Below, in pieces: positions 8,991 through 36,852 of a stretch of 64,000 nucleotides of DNA; position 1 is the first letter of the stretch, and each line of letters opens with the position of its first letter. Location: sequence record NC_101835.1; one strand, 5' to 3'. The stretch is from a phage. Below the pieces are notes generated by a model. It was not told the origin of the DNA and did not search any database. It saw nothing but the letters and a program-made list of their open reading frames with translations. The position numbers were made by a program, and so were the translations under genes.

Positions 8991-9077
8991 TGGTGGGGAG
9001 TGGTGGAGTCGAACCACCCGAGTCGCAATGACAATAGATTTACAGTCTACACCGCTACCTCTACGGGATAACTCCCC
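8991..9077 (-). tRNA. tRNA-Tyr (anticodon GTA), type II
   Basis: 87 nt, acceptor GGGGAGT/ACTCCCC, anticodon loop CTGTAAA, long variable arm, T-arm GTGG-TTCGACT-CCAC, encoded CCA. Confidence 0.75.
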
Positions 9078-9081
9078 AATT

Positions 9082-9156
9082 TGGCACCCCGTACTGGACT
9101 CGAACCAGTGTCAACGGCTTAGAAGGCCGCTGCTTTATCCACTAAGCTAACAGGGC
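9082..9156 (-). tRNA. tRNA-Arg (anticodon TCT)
   Basis: 75 nt, acceptor GCCCTGT/ACGGGGT (two G-U), D-arm GCTT-AGTGGATA-AAGC, anticodon loop CTTCTAA, T-arm ACTGG-TTCGAGT-CCAGT, encoded CCA. Confidence 0.75.
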
Positions 9157-30646: not shown

Positions 30647-31735
30647 ATGGCTGTATTTAATGCTGAGAACACCGCTCATAAAACTGGTGACTATCCGCTG
30701 TTTCTAGGACAGCAAATGGGTATGTACGACTCTATCAACAAAAAATATCCACAACTGTTTGAACTATACAAAAAACAAAAAGAACAAGACTGGGCAGAGG
30801 ATGAAGTGGATTTGTCGCAATCTATTTCAGATTTTGTAACATGCTCAAAGTCAACTTATGACGTGATGGTGCAGACCTTGATGTGGCAATGGGAGGCTGA
30901 TAGCGTTGCGGCAAGATCTATCATTTGTCTGTTTTCACCATTTATCACCAATAGTGAGCTTTTCACTCTATTGATGAAACAGTCAGAGATTGAAGTTCTT
31001 CACGCACTAACTTACTCAGAGATTGTTAGACAATGCCTCCCCAATGCCCGTGAGATTATAGAAGAGATTCAGGAAAACCAAAACGTTCTGAGCAGATCCG
31101 GCGTTATTGTCAAATACATGCAAGAGCTTGAGGTTATTGGTGCAAAATACCGACTGGATCCTTCTAGTGTTGAAGAAGATGTTGTGCGGAAATGCATTCT
31201 TAGAGCGCTTTTTGCACTTTTAGCTCTGGAAAGTATTGAGTTTATTGCAAGTTTTGCATGCACTTTCGCAGTAGCTGAACAGGGTATTTTTGTTCAGGTG
31301 GCGCAGCTTGTTCAAAAAATCATGCTTGACGAAATGCTACATTCGAAAGGTGATTTTGCCATCATTGATATCCTGCTTAATGATCCGGCATGGGAGAAAA
31401 GCTTCCTTGAGATAAAAGGGGAGTTAAAAGAGATTCTTGATGAAGTACGAACCAAAGAGTACGGTTGGAGTGACTATATTTTCAGCGAAGGAAGAGCGAT
31501 TATAGGTCTTAACTCACCGTTGCTTAAAGAATGGGTTGACTATAACTGCTCACCGATTTATGATTACTACGGCATCGACAAAGACTTTGTGCCGCCAACA
31601 AAGGACCCTCTACCGTTTATGCAGGTGTGGATGAAACCTTCATTGCAACAGACGGCGAACCAAGAAATGTCGAACACTGACTACCGCGTCAACACAACTG
31701 TTAACGACGCTGAAGAAGAAATTTGGGAGTTTTAA
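30647..31735 (+). CDS. nrdB: ribonucleotide reductase class Ia beta subunit
   Basis: 362 aa ferritin-like protein directly downstream of nrdA. Confidence 0.8.
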   Translation: MAVFNAENTAHKTGDYPLFLGQQMGMYDSINKKYPQLFELYKKQKEQDWAEDEVDLSQSISDFVTCSKSTYDVMVQTLMWQWEADSVAARSIICLFSPFITNSELFTLLMKQSEIEVLHALTYSEIVRQCLPNAREIIEEIQENQNVLSRSGVIVKYMQELEVIGAKYRLDPSSVEEDVVRKCILRALFALLALESIEFIASFACTFAVAEQGIFVQVAQLVQKIMLDEMLHSKGDFAIIDILLNDPAWEKSFLEIKGELKEILDEVRTKEYGWSDYIFSEGRAIIGLNSPLLKEWVDYNCSPIYDYYGIDKDFVPPTKDPLPFMQVWMKPSLQQTANQEMSNTDYRVNTTVNDAEEEIWEF

Positions 31736-31738
31736 TAC

Positions 31739-32017
31739 ATGAGCTGTGAAAAATCTTTTTTCTTTATTATTTACGGTAAAGATAACTGCCCACATTGTGT
31801 AAGAGCAAAAGAATTTGCAGTCAGTAAGGGTCTGCCTTTTGTATATAAGACACTTGGCGAGGGTTACACAAAAGAAGAGCTTATTGAGAAGTGCAGTCCA
31901 ATCGTACCCAGAACGTTGCCGCAGATCTTCTTAGAAAGTAATCTTGAAAGTGTCCATATAGGCGGTGCCGACGATTTCATCTCTTTTGTTAAGAATGGTT
32001 TTGGAGAGAAAAAGTGA
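31739..32017 (+). CDS. nrdC: glutaredoxin/thioredoxin (T4 NrdC-like)
   Basis: CPHC active site; C-terminal PQIF...HIGGADDF resembles T4 NrdC. Confidence 0.65.
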   Translation: MSCEKSFFFIIYGKDNCPHCVRAKEFAVSKGLPFVYKTLGEGYTKEELIEKCSPIVPRTLPQIFLESNLESVHIGGADDFISFVKNGFGEKK

Positions 32018-32874
32018 AAGTTGTAAAACGGGACGGTAGAGAAGAGGTCTATAACGGAATTAAGGTGATCAAGGCGGCAGAGTCCGCCTTACTTGAGTCT
32101 GGACATACTGAAGAAGAAGCTTACCGGATCGCCTGCGCGGTTAATGAAGTTGTTGCTAACAATCTACCAACCGACCAGTGCACGATCTCTGTAAAAAATA
32201 TCCATATCCTTGTTGAAGACGCTCTTATGGATATGGGTTTAAAATGTGCAGCCAGAGAATACATCCAGTATAGGCAGACAAGAGATAATAACAGAGAGGC
32301 AGGTGGAAAACTGCTTGCAGATATTAGTGGCTTCTTGGATCGCACTTGTGATGAATTTACAAAAGAAAACGCAAATAAGCCTACCAATCATGTACACACT
32401 CATCGTGACCTGCTTGCAGGCATCCTTAGCAAACACCTTGCATCAACACAGATCCTGCCAGACCGTGTCTCAGAAGAGCACAATAGAGGCTTCATCCATG
32501 TGCATGATCTTGACTACTTGATCAGTCCGTTAACAAACTGTTGTTTGGTAAATTATCCAGATATGTTGGAAAACGGATTCAATATTGGTAACGCCCATGT
32601 CAGTAAGCCGAAGTCAATAGGGGTTGCAACAACAATCCTTAGCCAAATCTCTAGTGCGGTAGCTAGTGCTCAATATGGTGGTCAGACTATGAGCCATATT
32701 GATCATTATCTGGCACAGTATGCTGAAGCAACCTATGAGAAGAACCTTAAATTTTGCCAGGAACATTGGTTGCCAGATGCTGAGACTGTTGCAATGCAAA
32801 TGACAGATAAGGACGTGTTTGACAGCATGCAGACGTTGCTTTATCAGATCAACACACTAACCTCGGTAAACGGT
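32014..32874 (+). CDS. nrdD: anaerobic ribonucleotide reductase NrdD, exon 1
   Basis: ATP-cone then collinear with T4 NrdD (HVHDLDY, TNCCLV, ENGFNIGNAHVSKPKSIGVAT); ends NTLTSVNG at GGT|TAA. Confidence 0.8.
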
Positions 32875-33131
32875 TAACAAACTGGCCGTTTTAAAACTCT
32901 GCTAACCTCAGTATGAGGGGTCAGCTGATCGCTGGCTAACGGGGAACGCTAAGGCGAAAGCTATGCCAATCCCGTGACTAGCTTCACAAGGAGTGAGGCG
33001 GTTGTAACGACTAACCTTTTGGTGTAGGGATTATGGAAGATTCCGAAACGCAGAGGTCTGATTAATAATCACACGGTGTGATTTCAGGCAAGAGATAGTC
33101 TGGCCTTGTGGAAACATAAGGGTGGGGACCG
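32875..33131 (+). mobile_element. group I intron 1 in nrdD (ORF-less, ~257 nt)
   Basis: Exon end AAACGGT pairs with intron GCCGUUU (P1 with U-G at splice site); intron ends in G before CAA encoding QTPF, restoring T4-like NrdD sequence. Confidence 0.6.
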
Positions 33132-33431
33132 CAAACCCCTTTTATCACATTAAGTTTAGGTCTGGACACCTCAGTATTTGGTAGAATGATTACCAAAAAC
33201 TACTTGAAAGTCCACAAAATGGGTCTTGGTGAAGAACGTATCACACCTGTGTTCCCTAAAGTGCTGTTCTTCCTAGAAGATGGTGTCAACATGAACCCTG
33301 GAGATCCTAACTATGATTTGAAACGATTAGCTCTGGAATGCTCTGCAGAGCGGATTTATCCTGACTTTGTTTCTGTTCCACTAAATCGTAAAGTGACAGG
33401 CTCGACAGATGGTAAAGTAACGAGCATGGGT
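33132..33431 (+). CDS. nrdD: NrdD, exon 2
   Basis: QTPFITLSLG...ITPVFPK...DPNYDLKRLALEC...SMG collinear with T4 NrdD; frame stops 2 codons after SMG. Confidence 0.75.
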
Positions 33432-34193
33432 AAACTATAACTGCTCATGTAAAATCTATCTAAACGGGGAAACTCCAGAACGGACAATCCCGTGCTAAAC
33501 GTAACAGAACTCCTGACCAAGAGGAGTCCTGAAATGAGAAAACAAATTCGTGATTTTGAAGGTTATGAAATTGACGAGATGGGCAATGTTTATTGCACCC
33601 GCTACGAAAATGAAAGAATTATTCATTCGTGGGAAGAGATAAACACAGGTTACCGTCTTGTTAGGATACGCAAGAACAAAAAGACTGTTTGCCTAAGGGT
33701 TCACAGACTTGTTGCTGAAGCGTTCTTACCAAATCCAGACAATTTACCCTATGTTAAGCACAAAGGGGACAACAGGAAAGATAACAGTGTATACAACCTT
33801 GAGTGGGGAGCTTGCCCAGACAATACGCAAGAAGGATACAACAACAACTGTTATGCTTTTTACACAAGATGCCACGGTGTGAAAGCCACCAACAAATTAA
33901 CTGGTGAGGTTTTCCACTTTAAAAGTCTGAGATGTTGTGCTGATGTTTTAGGAGTGGATAGAAAAAGAATATCTGCTATCCTGAAACGTGGTGCGCCTAA
34001 TAACTATGATTACGAGTTCTGTTACGAAATGCCTAACGACTAACCGTGATGAATGTAGCGGTGTAGGGTGTAAGCCGATGACACTCGAAATGGTAGACAC
34101 ACTAAGTGTGAAGATATAGTCTGATCTGCATGGGAACATGCAGCAGCACGTAAAGGTGCGGGGGTGGACTTGCGAACCACCCTGAACATAATG
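33432..34193 (+). mobile_element. group I intron 2 in nrdD, carrying HNH homing endonuclease ORF
   Basis: Exon end CATGGGT pairs with intron GCTCATG (P1); intron ends in G before TGT encoding CRSF, matching T4 SPMGCRSF. Confidence 0.6.
33492..34043 (+). CDS. HNH homing endonuclease (intron-encoded)
   Basis: GYEIDEMGNVY...HRLVAEAFLPNP...KHKGDNRKDNSVYNLEWG, typical phage HNH family. Confidence 0.7.
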   Translation: MLNVTELLTKRSPEMRKQIRDFEGYEIDEMGNVYCTRYENERIIHSWEEINTGYRLVRIRKNKKTVCLRVHRLVAEAFLPNPDNLPYVKHKGDNRKDNSVYNLEWGACPDNTQEGYNNNCYAFYTRCHGVKATNKLTGEVFHFKSLRCCADVLGVDRKRISAILKRGAPNNYDYEFCYEMPND

Positions 34194-35171
34194 TGTAGAA
34201 GTTTCTTATCGAAATATAGCGACCCTGTAACAGGCGAGGAGAAATACCTTGGCAGATTTAACTTAGGCGTTGTTAGCATTAACCTGCCAATGATTGCGGC
34301 AAAAGCTAAAACGGAAGGTGTTGATTTCTTTGCAGTTCTTGACGAATACCTGGATCTTGCATACGAGGCTCACCTTGTAAGGGTTAATCGTCTAAAAGGG
34401 GCAAAGGCAGGGCAGAACCCTATCATGTGGTGTGAAGGCGCTCTTGCTCGCCTGGATCCTGAAGAGAGTATTGATAAACTCTTCTATGACGGGTACGCTT
34501 CCATCAGTATTGGGTATATTGGTGTGTATGAAACCTGTCAGATTTTGGGCAGAGAGGGTGACAAGGCTTTAGCTCTTGGAATCCTTCAGCACATGAGAGA
34601 TGCTTGTGAGAGATACAAGAAGGAAAGTAGACTAGCGTTTAGCTTGTACGGCACCCCTTCTGAGAGTCTATGCTATAAAGCTGCAACCTGTCTGGATCGT
34701 GAATATCCTGAAGTGTTGAAGCACGAGCATGAATATCTCACCAACAGTTTCCATCAGCCAGTATGGATCAATAGCTCTCCTTTTGATAAGTGGAAGTATG
34801 AGGAAGGTTTTGCTATGATCTCCTCTGGTGGCAACATCGGATACGTAGAGACACCAAATCTGAAAAACAACTTAGATGCTTTGGAAGCTCTTGTTGATTT
34901 CGGATATAAACACATTATGTATTTTGGTATCAACCAGCCTGTGGATAAATGTCTTAAGTGTGGTTTCTCTGGTGAGTTCAGTGCAACAGCTAAAGGGTTC
35001 TGCTGCCCTGCGTGCGGATGCCACGATGAACAATATATCTCAGTGATCCGAAGAGTGTCTGGCTATCTCTCCAGCCCGAACAGTAGACCGTATAACACAG
35101 GTAAACAAGCAGAGGTTATCGAACGTGTTAAACATGTTGGGAATGTAGACTGGTGTCCGTTGAGTAAATAA
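34194..35171 (+). CDS. nrdD: NrdD, exon 3 (glycyl-radical C-terminus)
   Basis: CRSFLS...NLGVVSINLP, zinc ribbon CLKCG...CPACGC, glycyl radical motif RVSGYL. Confidence 0.8.
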   Translation, partial: CRSFLSKYSDPVTGEEKYLGRFNLGVVSINLPMIAAKAKTEGVDFFAVLDEYLDLAYEAHLVRVNRLKGAKAGQNPIMWCEGALARLDPEESIDKLFYDGYASISIGYIGVYETCQILGREGDKALALGILQHMRDACERYKKESRLAFSLYGTPSESLCYKAATCLDREYPEVLKHEHEYLTNSFHQPVWINSSPFDKWKYEEGFAMISSGGNIGYVETPNLKNNLDALEALVDFGYKHIMYFGINQPVDKCLKCGFSGEFSATAKGFCCPACGCHDEQYISVIRRVSGYLSSPNSRPYNTGKQAEVIERVKHVGNVDWCPLSK

Positions 35172-35280: not shown

Positions 35281-36213
35281 ATGAGGAGACTAACAACCGA
35301 AGAGTTTATAGAAAAAGCTCAGACTATACATGGTGACAAATATGATTACTTCAAAGTGGAGTATAAAAACAACAAGACACCTGTGTGTATAATTTGTCCT
35401 GAGCACGGTGAGTTCTGGCAAACCCCTGTGGCACATGCTTTCAAGAAGCATGGTTGTCCAAGGTGTGGTGGGTCAGCGAAAAAGAACACTGAAGAGTTCA
35501 TAAAAGAGGCTATGGTTGTTCATGGGGACAAGTACGATTACTCATTAGTCAAATATGCGAACATGAGAACGCCTGTAAAAATTGTTTGCCCTGAACACGG
35601 TGTGTTTGAACAATACCCTGAAAACCACTTATACCAAAGAAACGGCTGCCCAGAGTGCTATGACTTAAGACGTGGGCAAAGTCAAGCGTTAACCCATAAG
35701 GAGCATGCTGCAATTATCCACAAAGCCAACCCAGACATAGAAATATTAGAGAAAATTGCCAATGATAACACAAAAGTGCAATGTAGGTGCAAAATTTGTG
35801 GGTATAAGTGGTCTGCTAAACCTAATAACCTAAAAAGTGGTCGTGGCTGCTGTAAATGCGCACAAAATGGATTCTTATCTCATGAGTACGGTAAACTCTA
35901 CATTATGGTTGATGACTTAGAAGTGCCAACACTTATGAAAATCGGTGTATGCGTTAAAATGCACAGGAGGAAAAATGAGGTGCTTAACAGTGCTCGTAAA
36001 TCTGGCGCAGGTGTCCACACTCTTCACGTAGTAAAAACGTGGAGCGGATCAACTCAAAACATGGTAGACTTAGAAAAATCTGTGCATAAGGCCTTCAGCA
36101 AGTATAAAATAAACTTTCCTGTAAAATTTGACGGTAGCACTGAGTTTTTCTACTACAGGCCTGAAGTGTTTGACACGGTAGAAGAGGTATACAAGAAGAT
36201 TTGTGGTAAATGA
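35281..36213 (+). CDS. free-standing homing-endonuclease-like protein: 3 zinc-ribbon repeats plus C-terminal T5orf172 (GIY-YIG-like) domain
   Basis: Three ~60-aa repeats (HGDKYDY...CPEHG...GCPxC) and C-terminal T5orf172-like domain (EFFYY). Confidence 0.5.
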   Translation: MRRLTTEEFIEKAQTIHGDKYDYFKVEYKNNKTPVCIICPEHGEFWQTPVAHAFKKHGCPRCGGSAKKNTEEFIKEAMVVHGDKYDYSLVKYANMRTPVKIVCPEHGVFEQYPENHLYQRNGCPECYDLRRGQSQALTHKEHAAIIHKANPDIEILEKIANDNTKVQCRCKICGYKWSAKPNNLKSGRGCCKCAQNGFLSHEYGKLYIMVDDLEVPTLMKIGVCVKMHRRKNEVLNSARKSGAGVHTLHVVKTWSGSTQNMVDLEKSVHKAFSKYKINFPVKFDGSTEFFYYRPEVFDTVEEVYKKICGK

Positions 36214-36265: not shown

Positions 36266-36382
36266 ATGTCTACAGGTATTTATAAAATTTGCAAGTGCGG
36301 CTGTAGTTGCAATCTTCGTTGGTGCAAGGCACTAGACGATTTTATCTGGCATTGCCCTAAATGTGATGCGGAGTATCTATGA
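36266..36382 (+). CDS. small zinc-ribbon protein (38 aa)
   Basis: AAGGAGG RBS; CKCGCSC...CPKCD; below ORF-track size cutoff. Confidence 0.3.
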   Translation: MSTGIYKICKCGCSCNLRWCKALDDFIWHCPKCDAEYL

Positions 36383-36852
36383 ACATTGTCGGATACACAG
36401 AAATATCTTACACCGAAGGGCCAGGTATTAGAACTGCCTTGTGGGTATCTGGGTGCCCACACGCTTGCCCTGGTTGCTTTAATCAGGCATTTTGGTCAAA
36501 AGATAAGGGGAGGGAGTTCACTGAAGAAGACTTGCAAAAAATCTTGTCAGATTTAGATAACCCGTCTGTGTGCGGTATCTCTCTGCTGGGTGGAGAACCC
36601 TTAGCATACTATAATGAGCCAGATATTATTAGCCTGATGGAGAAAATTAAGGAAAAATTTGGTGACAAGAAAACTATTCTTGTATATACTGGGTTCACAT
36701 TTGACCATATCTCTAGTAATGTTCTTAAACTGGCTGATATCATCATTGACGGTAAGTATGTAAAAGATTTACCAACCAAGAAACCGTTCCGAGGTAGCGA
36801 TAACCAAAGAATGTTTAAAAAAGTAGCAGGCGGTTGGGTCCAGGTAGACTAG
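36379..36852 (+). CDS. nrdG: anaerobic ribonucleotide reductase activating protein
   Basis: Radical-SAM cluster motif CPHACPGC. Confidence 0.8.
   Translation: MNIVGYTEISYTEGPGIRTALWVSGCPHACPGCFNQAFWSKDKGREFTEEDLQKILSDLDNPSVCGISLLGGEPLAYYNEPDIISLMEKIKEKFGDKKTILVYTGFTFDHISSNVLKLADIIIDGKYVKDLPTKKPFRGSDNQRMFKKVAGGWVQVD

What the first reader, a model, noticed from the sequence alone, without database searches (positions are those of the whole stretch)
32014..35171. nrdD interrupted by two group I introns, one ORF-less and one with an HNH homing endonuclease
The three ORF pieces are collinear with T4 NrdD as recalled (NTLTSVNG|QTPF... and ...SMG|CRSF...). Both 5' splice sites show P1 pairing with a U-G at the junction (AAACGGU with GCCGUUU; CAUGGGU with GCUCAUG), and both introns end in G. 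Intron 1 is ~257 nt without an ORF; intron 2 is ~762 nt with an HNH ORF.
Basis: partly seen in the sequence, partly recalled or inferred. Interest (0 to 1): 0.7.

Follow-up and report, generated by a model that had tools for sequence, protein, structure and literature searches.

The report
Two self-splicing introns in phage nrdD
The anaerobic ribonucleotide reductase gene of this rV5-like coliphage is interrupted by two mobile group I introns, one bare and one carrying an HNH homing endonuclease; this is real, but it is an ordinary kind of feature for phage nucleotide-metabolism genes.

Summary
nrdD has three exons: 32014-32874, 33132-33431 and 34194-35171. Joined, they give one 712-aa ORF. 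It aligns without a gap across both junctions to T4 NrdD (E 1e-166).

Intron 1 (32875-33131, 257 nt) has no ORF. Intron 2 (33432-34193, 762 nt) carries an I-HmuI-like HNH ORF (33534-34043) in the P6a loop.

Close relatives of this phage (genus Vequintavirus) lack one or both insertions, exactly at the predicted junctions. rV5 itself lacks both.

Both introns have a U·G pair at the 5' splice site, a terminal G and a full subgroup IA2 core. Intron 2 is a relative of the self-splicing T4 nrdD (sunY) intron. On a 7-sequence alignment 97.7% of pair cells form standard pairs and 34 of 67 pairs show compensatory changes. For intron 1 the unconstrained minimum-energy fold already gives the group I layout (z = -4.8).

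Both score below Rfam's gathering cut-off (30 and 35 bits against 50).

The sites differ from T4's. Site 2 lies between the Gly289 and Cys290 (catalytic cysteine) codons in T4 numbering.

No paper I found describes these introns, but some GenBank records already annotate them. Splicing itself was not tested. Verdict: new members of a known kind, modest interest.

The parts
32014..32874 (+). nrdD exon 1 (287 codons; GTG start overlapping the glutaredoxin stop; ATP-cone plus the N-terminal part of NrdD)
   Evidence: ORF list; spliced translation; Pfam ATP-cone at residues 2-91 and NRDD; rV5 and JEP1 annotate the same start
32875..33131 (+). Intron 1: 257-nt ORF-less group I (IA2-type) intron. 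It begins with an in-frame UAA and ends in G33131
   Evidence: Precisely absent from rV5 and VB-EcoM-WM; Rfam RF00028 30.1 bits, E 2.5e-5 local; MFE fold z -4.8
32868..32891 (+). Intron 1 P1: exon AAACGGU (32868-32874) with guide sequence GCCGUUU (32885-32891); U32874·G32885 at the 5' splice site
   Evidence: compensatory change in JEP1/nomine/FV3 (CAACGGU with GCCGUUG)
32897..32902 (+). Intron 1 P3 5' strand CUCUGC; pairs with GCAGAG at 33050-33055
   Evidence: JEP1-type has CUCUCC with GGAGAG (read from the sequence)
32906..32936 (+). Intron 1: two extra hairpins (CCUCA/UGAGG and GUCAGC/GCUGGC) between the P3 5' strand and P4
   Evidence: A-U to G-C change in the second hairpin
32939..32975 (+). 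Intron 1 P4-P5-P4' (ACGGGG ... UCCCGU)
33009..33013 (+). Intron 1 P7 5' strand GACUA; pairs with UAGUC at 33096-33100 (pseudoknot); followed by P7.1 and P7.2 (33027-33044)
   Evidence: matches the Rfam consensus ACGACUA / AGAUAGUCU
33057..33121 (+). Intron 1 P8 (33057-33088), J8/7 with the P7 3' strand (33089-33101), and P9 (33104-33121)
   Evidence: P9 compensatory changes against JEP1
33132..33431 (+). nrdD exon 2 (100 codons, QTPF...TSMG)
33432..34193 (+). Intron 2: 762-nt group I (IA2, T4 sunY-like) intron with an ORF in the P6a loop; ends in G34193
   Evidence: Precisely absent from rV5, RudolfGeigy and nomine; Rfam 35.3 bits for the 3' half; covariation
33425..33505 (+). Intron 2 5' core: P1 CAUGGGU (33425-33431) with GCUCAUG (33443-33449); candidate P10 strand CUAUA (33435-33439); P3 5' strand (33455-33460); P4-P5-P4' (33464-33493); P6 (33494-33495); P6a 5' strand (33500-33505)
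33534..34043 (+). HNH homing-endonuclease ORF (169 aa, I-HmuI-like). AGGAG lies 8 nt upstream of the ATG. The last codons ...EMPND-stop overlap P6', J6/7 and the P7 5' strand
34021..34193 (+). Intron 2 3' core: P6a' (34021-34026), P6' (34031-34032), P7 (34038-34042 with 34117-34121), P7.1 (34043-34062), P7.2 (34066-34086), P3' (34092-34097), P8 (34098-34110), P9 (34126-34143), P9.1 (34146-34159), P9.2 (34162-34182), terminal G 34193
   Evidence: blastn similarity to the T4 nrdD, SPbeta bnrdE, beta22 and RB3 introns
34194..35171 (+). nrdD exon 3 (325 codons plus stop). It starts with the codon of the catalytic Cys (T4 Cys290) and contains the Zn ribbon and the glycyl-radical motif RRVSGY. The first ~38 nt form a sequence tract strictly linked to presence of intron 2

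Best explanation
nrdD of this Vequintavirus (rV5-like coliphage) is transcribed with two subgroup-IA2 group I introns. These excise themselves by the standard two-step guanosine-initiated transesterification. That joins 32874 to 33132 and 33431 to 34194 and restores one 712-aa class III ribonucleotide reductase. Intron 2 is a mobile element. Its I-HmuI-like HNH endonuclease, encoded in the P6a loop, most likely nicks or cuts intron-less nrdD alleles of co-infecting phages near the Gly289|Cys290 codons (T4 numbering). Repair then copies in the intron together with about 38 nt of downstream exon. Intron 1 in this phage is an ORF-less form of an intron that in sister phages carries its own HNH gene in the P8 loop. 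It can spread only by recombination or with an endonuclease supplied in trans. Shown here: the exon-intron boundaries, the ribozyme fold, homology to a proven self-splicing intron, presence/absence polymorphism, and the linked exon tract. Inferred: splicing in vivo, endonuclease activity and homing.
For: Reading frame: the spliced ORF is continuous and collinear with T4 NrdD across both junctions. Boundaries: both segments are precisely absent in close relatives. rV5 lacks both, VB-EcoM-WM lacks intron 1, and RudolfGeigy and nomine lack intron 2. Distribution among ~118 related records is sporadic: 13 carry ORF-less intron 1, 28 carry the ORF-bearing form, and about 18 carry intron 2. Intron 2 fold: RNAalifold on 7 homologues recovers P1, P3, P4, P5, P6, P6a, P7.1, P7.2, P8, P9 and P9.2 without guidance. 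With P7 and P9.1 added, 97.7% of pair cells are standard pairs and 34 of 67 pairs have double changes, against at most 10 in any slid control and 0 of 500 shuffles reaching the observed values. That alignment includes the T4 nrdD intron (Rfam 105 bits) and an ORF-less relative (65 bits). Intron 1 fold: the unconstrained MFE equals the group I layout, z -4.8. Compensatory changes against the JEP1/FV3 form occur in P1, P3.2, P6a and P9, and in P3 (CUCUGC/GCAGAG against CUCUCC/GGAGAG, read). Endonuclease: the HNH ORF matches I-HmuI over its full length. Orthologues sit in the same loop of same-site introns in Phapecoctavirus nepoznato (90% identity), Vibrio phage F93 (50%) and Felixounavirus FSL SP-010 (48%). 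P10: the candidate pairing covaries with the 3' exon, namely window CUAUA/UGUAG, SP-010 CUCUAUA/UGUAGAG and F93 GAUUGGCA/UGCCGAUC (read). Exon tract: TGTAGAAGTTTCTTATCGAAATATAGCGACCCTGTAAC is present in all four intron-2 alleles and TGCCGGAGTTTTCTTAGCAAATACA.TGACTTGGAAAC in all three intron-less ones.
Against: No RNA data and no splicing assay. Both introns score below Rfam's gathering threshold (30.1 and 35.3 against 50 bits). For intron 2 this is because the ORF splits the core; for intron 1 it is probably because of the two extra hairpins. Pfam HNH_3 is below its curated cut-off (19.8 against 24.8). NrdD is not needed in aerobic growth (established for T4), so selection for splicing could be weak. 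Non-splicing HNH 'introns' have been reported in the related Certrevirus CB7 (PMC7344957). Only two or three distinct sequence types of intron 1 exist, so its covariation support is thin.
Confidence: 0.88

Rival explanations
1. One or both insertions are group I-derived but no longer splice (decayed relics). The gene is then a pseudogene, or is expressed as fragments that assemble after translation, as in Aeromonas phage Aeh1 NrdA split by mobE.
For: Sub-threshold Rfam scores. NrdD is dispensable aerobically (general knowledge of T4). A non-splicing HNH-containing insertion is reported in phage CB7 (PMC7344957). Intron 1 has lost, or never had, its ORF, and has unusual hairpins between P3 and P4.
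Against: All core helices are intact, and compensatory changes are maintained across four virus genera. P1 and P10 covary with the exons. Exon 2 has no start codon or ribosome-binding site at its beginning, and each intron puts an in-frame stop within 0-3 codons. The exons remain under purifying selection, since flank differences are almost all synonymous.
Confidence: 0.08
2. The insertions are not RNA introns. They are free-standing homing-endonuclease cassettes or other DNA insertions that simply split nrdD.
For: GenBank annotators mostly list the pieces as separate CDSs. A free-standing endonuclease-type gene does sit just downstream (35281-36213).
Against: The 257-nt insertion has no ORF at all. 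Both insertions have the full ribozyme architecture and are homologous to the T4 nrdD intron. The boundaries coincide with U·G/P1 and a terminal G.
Confidence: 0.03
3. Assembly or chimera artefact, or inteins.
For: None found.
Against: The same arrangement occurs in several independently sequenced genomes: A147, A135 and 241Ecol014PP, and JEP1 with the longer intron 1. The insertions are out of frame and contain stops, so they are not inteins.
Confidence: 0.01

Closest known systems
T4 nrdD (sunY) group I intron with I-TevII
   Same: Same host gene and same IA2 architecture (no P2; P7.1/P7.2; P9.1/P9.2). It has the same guide sequence GCUCAUG as window intron 2. Core identity is about 68%, with many compensatory changes. 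It is the best of the three T4 matches to intron 2.
   Different: The T4 intron sits in the Tyr180 codon (phase 1). That is 32 nt upstream of window site 1 and 329 nt upstream of site 2. T4 carries a GIY-YIG endonuclease in the 3' peripheral region. The window intron carries an HNH endonuclease in the P6a loop.
[quoted passage not shown] 2002; cited in PMC3653736 and PMC7344957)
   Same: Two group I introns in one ribonucleotide reductase large-subunit gene, inserted at highly conserved, functionally important codons, one of them with an HNH endonuclease.
   Different: A different RNR class (Ib nrdE against III nrdD), a different phage family and different sites. Splicing was shown experimentally there, not here.
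I-HmuI, the HNH nicking endonuclease of the Bacillus phage SPO1 DNA-polymerase intron (PDB 1U3E)
   Same: Full-length sequence match to the intron 2 ORF (E 1.8e-7), with the HNH motif and a C-terminal NUMOD-like DNA-binding domain. The exon tract linked to the intron lies downstream of the insertion site. As I recall, this fits the polarity reported for SPO1/SP82 homing; I did not verify that here.
   Different: About 25-30% identity. Different host gene and target. The ORF lies in P6a here. Activity is untested.
T4 td intron with I-TevI
   Same: IA2 intron with the endonuclease ORF looped out of P6a. From memory of the td sequence, the P3-P4 region (AAUCUAUCUAAACGGGGAA) is nearly identical to intron 2.
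   Different: td has a P2 and a GIY-YIG enzyme, and a different host gene.
Existing GenBank annotation of Vequintavirus nrdD (BASEL phage RudolfGeigy MZ501102, joined CDS; JEP1 note 'Phage intron')
   Same: The same intron 1 (98.8% identical) is annotated there as an intervening sequence. The BASEL paper says intron boundaries were set by comparative genomics (PMC8594841).
   Different: I found no structural, phylogenetic or experimental description. Most records list the exons as separate genes.

Membership tests
Group I intron (Rfam RF00028) | P1 helix between the end of the 5' exon and an internal guide sequence, with U·G at the 5' splice site | tested here: met
   Intron 1: AAACGGU/GCCGUUU. 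Intron 2: CAUGGGU/GCUCAUG. Compensatory changes in relatives: JEP1 CAACGGU/GCCGUUG and SP-010 GAUGGGU/GCUCAUC.
Group I intron (Rfam RF00028) | Terminal guanosine (omega-G) at the 3' splice site | tested here: met
   G33131 and G34193. The boundaries are fixed independently by intron-less alleles.
Group I intron (Rfam RF00028) | Conserved core: P3-P8 and P4-P6 domains, P7 pseudoknot with the J6/7 and J8/7 consensus (ACGACUA ... AGAUAUAGUC) | tested here: met
   Intron 2: (97.7% paired; 34 of 67 pairs compensatory; P7 invariant in all 7 sequences). Intron 1.
Group I intron (Rfam RF00028) | Score at or above Rfam's gathering threshold (50 bits) | tested here: not met
   30.1 bits (intron 1) and 35.3 bits (3' half of intron 2), with E 9.5e-4 and 2.5e-5 for the whole window. 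Homologues pass: T4 nrdD 105.3 bits and ORF-less TS9 65.4 bits. All members with the ORF in P6a score 33-39 bits.
Group I intron (Rfam RF00028) | Guanosine-dependent self-splicing / ligated exons in RNA | not testable with these tools
   Needs in vitro transcription with GTP, or RT-PCR/RNA-seq of infected cells.
Subgroup IA2 (phage-type group I introns) | Extra helices P7.1 and P7.2 between P7 and the 3' strand of P3 | tested here: met
   Intron 2: P7.1 34043-34062 and P7.2 34066-34086, both with covariation. Intron 1: P7.2 33027-33044, and a short P7.1.
HNH homing endonuclease, I-HmuI-like | HNH catalytic motif plus a C-terminal DNA-binding module | tested here: inconclusive
   Full-length alignment to 1U3E, E 1.8e-7, with VKHKGDNRKDNSVYNLEW aligned to VDHKDGNKDNNLSTNLRW. 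PHROG 59, E 2.8e-32. However Pfam HNH_3 (19.8 against 24.8 bits) and I-HmuI_NUMOD-like (20 against 27 bits) are below their curated cut-offs.
HNH homing endonuclease, I-HmuI-like | Site-specific nicking or cleavage of the intron-less allele, leading to homing | not testable with these tools
   Indirect only: sporadic distribution, and a ~38-nt downstream exon tract strictly linked to the intron.
Class III (anaerobic) ribonucleotide reductase NrdD | NRDD fold, catalytic Cys on the finger loop, C-terminal Zn ribbon and glycyl-radical motif | tested here: met
   Pfam NRDD 532 bits, Gly_radical 86 bits, ATP-cone 50 bits. T4 NrdD 1H78, E 1e-166, with MGCRSF, CxxC...CxxC and RRVSGY aligned.

The most novel reading that the evidence does not exclude
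Intron 2 belongs to one ribozyme lineage that sits at several non-homologous sites. The 5'-exon ends at those sites are nearly the same heptamer: T4 nrdD UAUGAGU; window, nepoznato, F93 and SP-010 nrdD C/G/UAUGGGU; Aeromonas phage TS9 tape-measure gene GAUGGCU; Pseudomonas phage PaoP5 DNA polymerase UAUGGAU. All pair with an almost unchanged guide sequence G(C/G)UC(C)AUG/C followed by UAAAA. This would mean the lineage colonised new sites, including a second site in the same gene, by guide-sequence complementarity (reverse splicing) rather than by endonuclease specificity. Different endonucleases (GIY-YIG in the 3' periphery, HNH in P6a) would then have been acquired afterwards. Separately, the two hairpins of intron 1 inserted between P3 and P4 may be a peripheral element not previously described for group I introns.
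Probability: 0.2. Interest if true: 0.5.

Novelty: new member of a known kind. Interest (0 to 1): 0.3.

Why it matters
For annotation: most Vequintavirus, Phapecoctavirus and Felixounavirus records list nrdD as two or three separate genes plus a 'hypothetical protein'. They should carry one joined CDS plus intron and homing-endonuclease features. For biology: this adds a well-delimited natural series for studying intron homing, co-conversion and the gain or loss of endonuclease ORFs in coliphages that are easy to cross. The series comprises the intron-less allele, each intron alone, both together, and intron 1 with and without its ORF. It also shows a T4 sunY-type ribozyme sitting exactly at the codon of the catalytic cysteine of NrdD. 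This is another case of mobile introns targeting the most conserved part of an enzyme gene. None of this changes current concepts.

Tried and rejected
1. My first boundary guess was off by one base (32875/33430) and broke the frame. It was corrected.

2. The default Rfam gathering scan found only the terL intron. The two nrdD introns appear only in the E-value mode.

3. Rfam's own alignment of intron 1 uses CGCUGGCU as the P3 5' strand. I rejected this because that pairing fails in the JEP1 variant, whereas CUCUGC/GCAGAG covaries (CUCUCC/GGAGAG).

4. The MAFFT alignment of the two intron 1 types (A2) misaligns the non-homologous P7.1-P8 segment. P3 covariation therefore had to be read from the sequences. 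I did not run the count of structure pairs on A2.

5. Searches for more distant intron 1 relatives gave little. The viral contigs pattern scan gave one Vequintavirus-like contig. The genome contigs pattern scan gave nothing. The blastn 'distant' search gave only Vequintavirus plus a 50-nt match in Bacillus phage S4-2.

6. Literature searches for a description of these introns, or of hairpins between P3 and P4, found nothing specific.

7. Intein, group II intron and assembly artefact were considered and dismissed. The insertions contain stops and are out of frame, they have the group I core, and they recur in independent genomes.

The claim that the low score is due to the ORF rests on the scores of relatives.

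9. An earlier count gave 24 nt between the T4 site and site 1. The correct figure is 32 nt, corrected in the later checkpoint note.
Full report
**Origin and context.** The window is from an rV5-like myovirus (genus Vequintavirus). Region 32014-35171 is 98.3% identical to two unannotated records labelled 'Campylobacter phage A147/A135', and 94-96% identical to many Escherichia Vequintavirus genomes. The gene order is nrdB (30647-31735), glutaredoxin (31739-32017), nrdD (32014-35171), an endonuclease-like ORF (35281-36213) and nrdG (36379-36852).

**Checking the observation.** The ORF list shows three nrdD-like pieces on one strand. My first boundary guess was off by one base and broke the frame.

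The corrected layout is:
- exon 1: 32014-32874
- intron 1: 32875-33131 (257 nt)
- exon 2: 33132-33431
- intron 2: 33432-34193 (762 nt)
- exon 3: 34194-35171

With these boundaries the joined exons are 2139 nt and encode one 712-aa protein. That protein carries Pfam NRDD (532 bits), Gly_radical and an N-terminal ATP-cone. It aligns to T4 NrdD (PDB 1H78) at E 1e-166, with no gap at either junction: NTLTSVNG|QTPFITL against NTLFSSNGQTPFVTI, and KVTSMG|CRSFLS against VSPMGCRSFLS. Each intron places an in-frame stop within three codons of the 5' splice site.

**Natural controls.** A 489-nt query made of the spliced junction region finds 118 related phage records. Many of them, rV5 (NC_011041) included, match it as one uninterrupted piece. 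Direct comparison gives exact indels:
- rV5 lacks both segments.
- VB-EcoM-WM lacks only intron 1.
- RudolfGeigy and nomine lack only intron 2.
- 241Ecol014PP has both.
- JEP1 has intron 2 together with a 797/798-nt form of intron 1 carrying a 534-nt HNH ORF. FV3 has that same long form of intron 1; whether it has intron 2 was not determined, because the fetched locus ended before site 2 was found.

Intron 1 occurs in 41 Vequintavirus records, 13 ORF-less and 28 ORF-bearing. Intron 2 of this type occurs in about 18. Such sporadic presence among near-identical genomes is what mobile introns show.

**Exon flanks.** At site 1, intron-less alleles read AACGGG|CAAACT. Every intron-bearing allele has T at the last exon base, the U needed for the U·G pair. 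The ORF-less intron comes with about 30 nt of upstream and about 12 nt of downstream synonymous differences. The ORF-bearing form differs from intron-less alleles only at -1 and +3.

At site 2 the upstream flank varies by lineage only. The first ~38 nt of exon 3 exist in two versions strictly linked to the intron:
- all four intron-2 alleles: TGTAGAAGTTTCTTATCGAAATATAGCGACCCTGTAAC
- all three intron-less alleles: TGCCGGAGTTTTCTTAGCAAATACA.TGACTTGGAAAC

After that tract the sequences converge. This looks like a co-conversion tract, and probably also a change that destroys the target site.

**Intron 2 structure.** Rfam matches only its 3' half (34038-34143, 35.3 bits, below the 50-bit gathering score; E 6.7e-7 in the local scan, and 2.5e-5 for the whole window). 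The reason is that the ORF splits the core.

The 164-nt 3' part has blastn similarity to 885 phage records. These include classic self-splicing introns: T4 nrdD, SPbeta bnrdE, beta22 thymidylate synthase and RB3 nrdB. Aligned with the T4 nrdD (sunY) intron, the ORF-less core is about 68% identical and shares the guide sequence GCUCAUG followed by UAAAAUCU.

The same intron, at the same MG|C site and with an orthologous HNH ORF, occurs in three other phages:
- Phapecoctavirus nepoznato (90% protein identity)
- Vibrio phage F93 (50%)
- Felixounavirus FSL SP-010 (48%)

I aligned these with the T4 and SYGD1 nrdD introns and an ORF-less relative from Aeromonas phage TS9 (alignment A1). RNAalifold, which knows nothing of group I introns, returned P1, P3 (long-range), P4, P5, P6, P6a, P7.1, P7.2, P8, P9 and P9.2. 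Of 62 predicted pairs, 32 show compensatory double changes. After I added the P7 pseudoknot and P9.1, the count of structure pairs gave 97.7% standard pairs and 34 of 67 pairs with double changes. No slid control exceeded 10, and none of 500 shuffles reached the observed values.

Rfam scores the T4 member at 105 bits and TS9 at 65 bits. All members with the ORF in P6a score 33-39 bits.

Window coordinates of every helix are in the parts list. The ORF (33534-34043) lies in the P6a terminal loop. Its last codons...E-M-P-N-D-stop, are the P6', J6/7 and P7 nucleotides AAAUGCCUAACGACUAA. The same C-terminus occurs in nepoznato and F93.

A candidate P10 also covaries with the 3' exon: window CUAUA/UGUAG, SP-010 CUCUAUA/UGUAGAG, F93 GAUUGGCA/UGCCGAUC (read). 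This argues that exon ligation is under selection.

**Intron 1 structure.** Rfam gives 30.1 bits (E 2.5e-5 local, 9.5e-4 for the whole window). The unconstrained minimum-free-energy fold of 32865-33137 is identical to the fold constrained to my helix assignments (-97.8 kcal/mol). It is also far more stable than shuffled sequences (z -4.8, 0 of 200 shuffles as good).

That fold contains P1, long-range P3 (32897-32902 with 33050-33055), P4-P5, P6/P6a, P7.2, P8 and P9. The P7 strands GACUA (33009-33013) and UAGUC (33096-33100) lie in the consensus contexts ACGACUAA and AGAUAGUCU.

Against the JEP1/FV3 form there are compensatory changes in:
- P1: A-U to C-G, where the exon base changes together with the guide sequence
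- the second extra hairpin
- P6a
- P9 (all four)
- P3: CUCUGC/GCAGAG against CUCUCC/GGAGAG, read

In the JEP1 form the HNH ORF lies in the P8 loop. Its start codon is within the 5' strand (CUCUAUG). Its last two codons are the 3' strand (GUAGAG), followed by the stop (UAA) that begins J8/7. The P7.1-P8 segment of the window intron (33016-33089) is not homologous to that of JEP1. The ORF-less form is therefore not a simple deletion derivative.

One oddity: two hairpins (32906-32936) lie between the P3 5' strand and P4, where these introns normally have only the three-nucleotide J3/4. Rfam's alignment treats them as P2-like, but its alternative P3 fails in JEP1. I found no description of such an insertion.

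**The endonuclease.** The 169-aa product matches I-HmuI (1U3E) from end to end (E 1.8e-7), with the HNH region aligned. It also matches PHROG 59 (E 2.8e-32). The Pfam HNH_3 and I-HmuI NUMOD-like hits are below their curated cut-offs. Activity is inferred, not shown.

**Comparison with T4.** In T4 the nrdD intron interrupts the Tyr180 codon, after nt 538 of the gene.
- Window site 1 corresponds to T4 Gly190|Gln191, 32 nt downstream. An earlier count said 24 nt; 32 is correct.
- Window site 2 corresponds to Gly289|Cys290, 329 nt downstream.

By established knowledge of the T4 NrdD structure, Cys290 is the thiyl-radical cysteine. Neither window intron is therefore at the T4 site.

Intron 2 nevertheless shares T4's guide sequence, because the two 5' exon ends are alike (UAUGAGU and CAUGGGU). 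Two further relatives at unrelated sites have GAUGGCU and UAUGGAU: the TS9 tape-measure gene and the PaoP5 DNA polymerase gene. A Gamaleyavirus relative has a different P1. This pattern fits site choice by guide-sequence complementarity, that is reverse splicing. With so few cases it is only a lead.

**Literature and novelty.**
- The rV5 genome paper describes introns only in the terminase gene (PMC3606486).
- The Felix O1 paper reports no introns (PMC3185647).
- A survey of phage RNR genes notes that nrdD is the most often split RNR gene, but does not mention rV5, FV3 or Felix O1-like phages by name (PMC3653736).
- The BASEL collection paper states that intron boundaries were set by comparative genomics (PMC8594841). 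Its RudolfGeigy record joins the nrdD exons across intron 1.

The elements are thus present in databases and partly annotated, but not characterised. Phage RNR genes with one or two group I introns and HNH or GIY-YIG endonucleases are textbook cases (T4 nrdB and nrdD, Twort nrdE, SPbeta bnrdE and bnrdF). I therefore rate this as a new member of a known kind with modest interest.

**Verdict.** Observation confirmed and interpretation supported. What remains to be shown is splicing and endonuclease activity. The experiments and the results that would support or refute them are listed under decisive next steps.

Noticed in passing
window 4464-6894 (- strand); intron 5636-6478: The large terminase gene is split (exon 1 at 6466-6894, exon 2 at 4464-5552) by a group I intron that passes Rfam's gathering score (50.3 bits). 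The intron carries a 196-aa ORF (5660-6250) with a C-terminal HNH/endonuclease VII-like motif. This matches the terminase intron reported for rV5 (PMC3606486). Phage phiWec196 has another intron further into terL (before ...DNPVCLRDNPEY...) that this window lacks.
   Followed up: partly
window 35281-36213 (+): A free-standing endonuclease-type gene (Pfam DUF723, CapR, DUF4379 zinc fingers, T5orf172; PHROG 681 'endonuclease') lies between nrdD and nrdG. rV5 and 241Ecol014PP have other small ORFs there instead, so it looks like a separately mobile homing-endonuclease gene. In several relatives similarity to the window stops at 35134, 37 nt before the nrdD stop.
   Followed up: partly
window 32906-32936: Intron 1 has two hairpins between the P3 5' strand and P4, where related introns have only a 3-nt joiner. 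The layout is kept, with a compensatory change, in the JEP1/FV3 variant, and a similar layout appears in a Bacillus phage S4-2 intron (L015). I found no published description.
   Followed up: partly
window 34021-34043: The last codons of the intron 2 HNH ORF (E-M-P-N-D-stop) are at the same time the P6 3' strand, J6/7 and the P7 5' strand of the ribozyme. The same C-terminus is kept in the orthologues of nepoznato and Vibrio phage F93, which are 90% and 50% identical overall.
   Followed up: yes
window 34194-34231: There is a 38-nt exon tract, mostly synonymous differences plus two or three amino-acid changes (SDPVT against NDLET/SDLET). It is strictly linked to presence of intron 2 in seven compared alleles. 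It is probably a co-conversion tract, with loss of the endonuclease target.
   Followed up: yes
window 8435-9156 (-) and 8044-8385 (-): A cluster of at least five tRNA genes (plus two weaker tRNA-like hits) lies next to a 113-aa free-standing HNH-type ORF (...HHLDP...CRNCHAAVH).
   Followed up: no
GenBank records MG065644, MG065690 and about 20 others: Records named 'Campylobacter phage' with host Campylobacter jejuni are 97-98% identical to this region of Escherichia Vequintavirus genomes and carry no annotation. The host label looks doubtful.
   Followed up: no
L010 (Aeromonas phage TS9) 1716-1976; L018 (Pseudomonas phage PaoP5) about 1338-1853: Close ORF-less relatives of the intron 2 ribozyme interrupt a tape-measure gene (TS9) and a DNA polymerase gene (PaoP5). 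Their 5' exon ends (GAUGGCU, UAUGGAU) resemble those at the two nrdD sites.
   Followed up: partly
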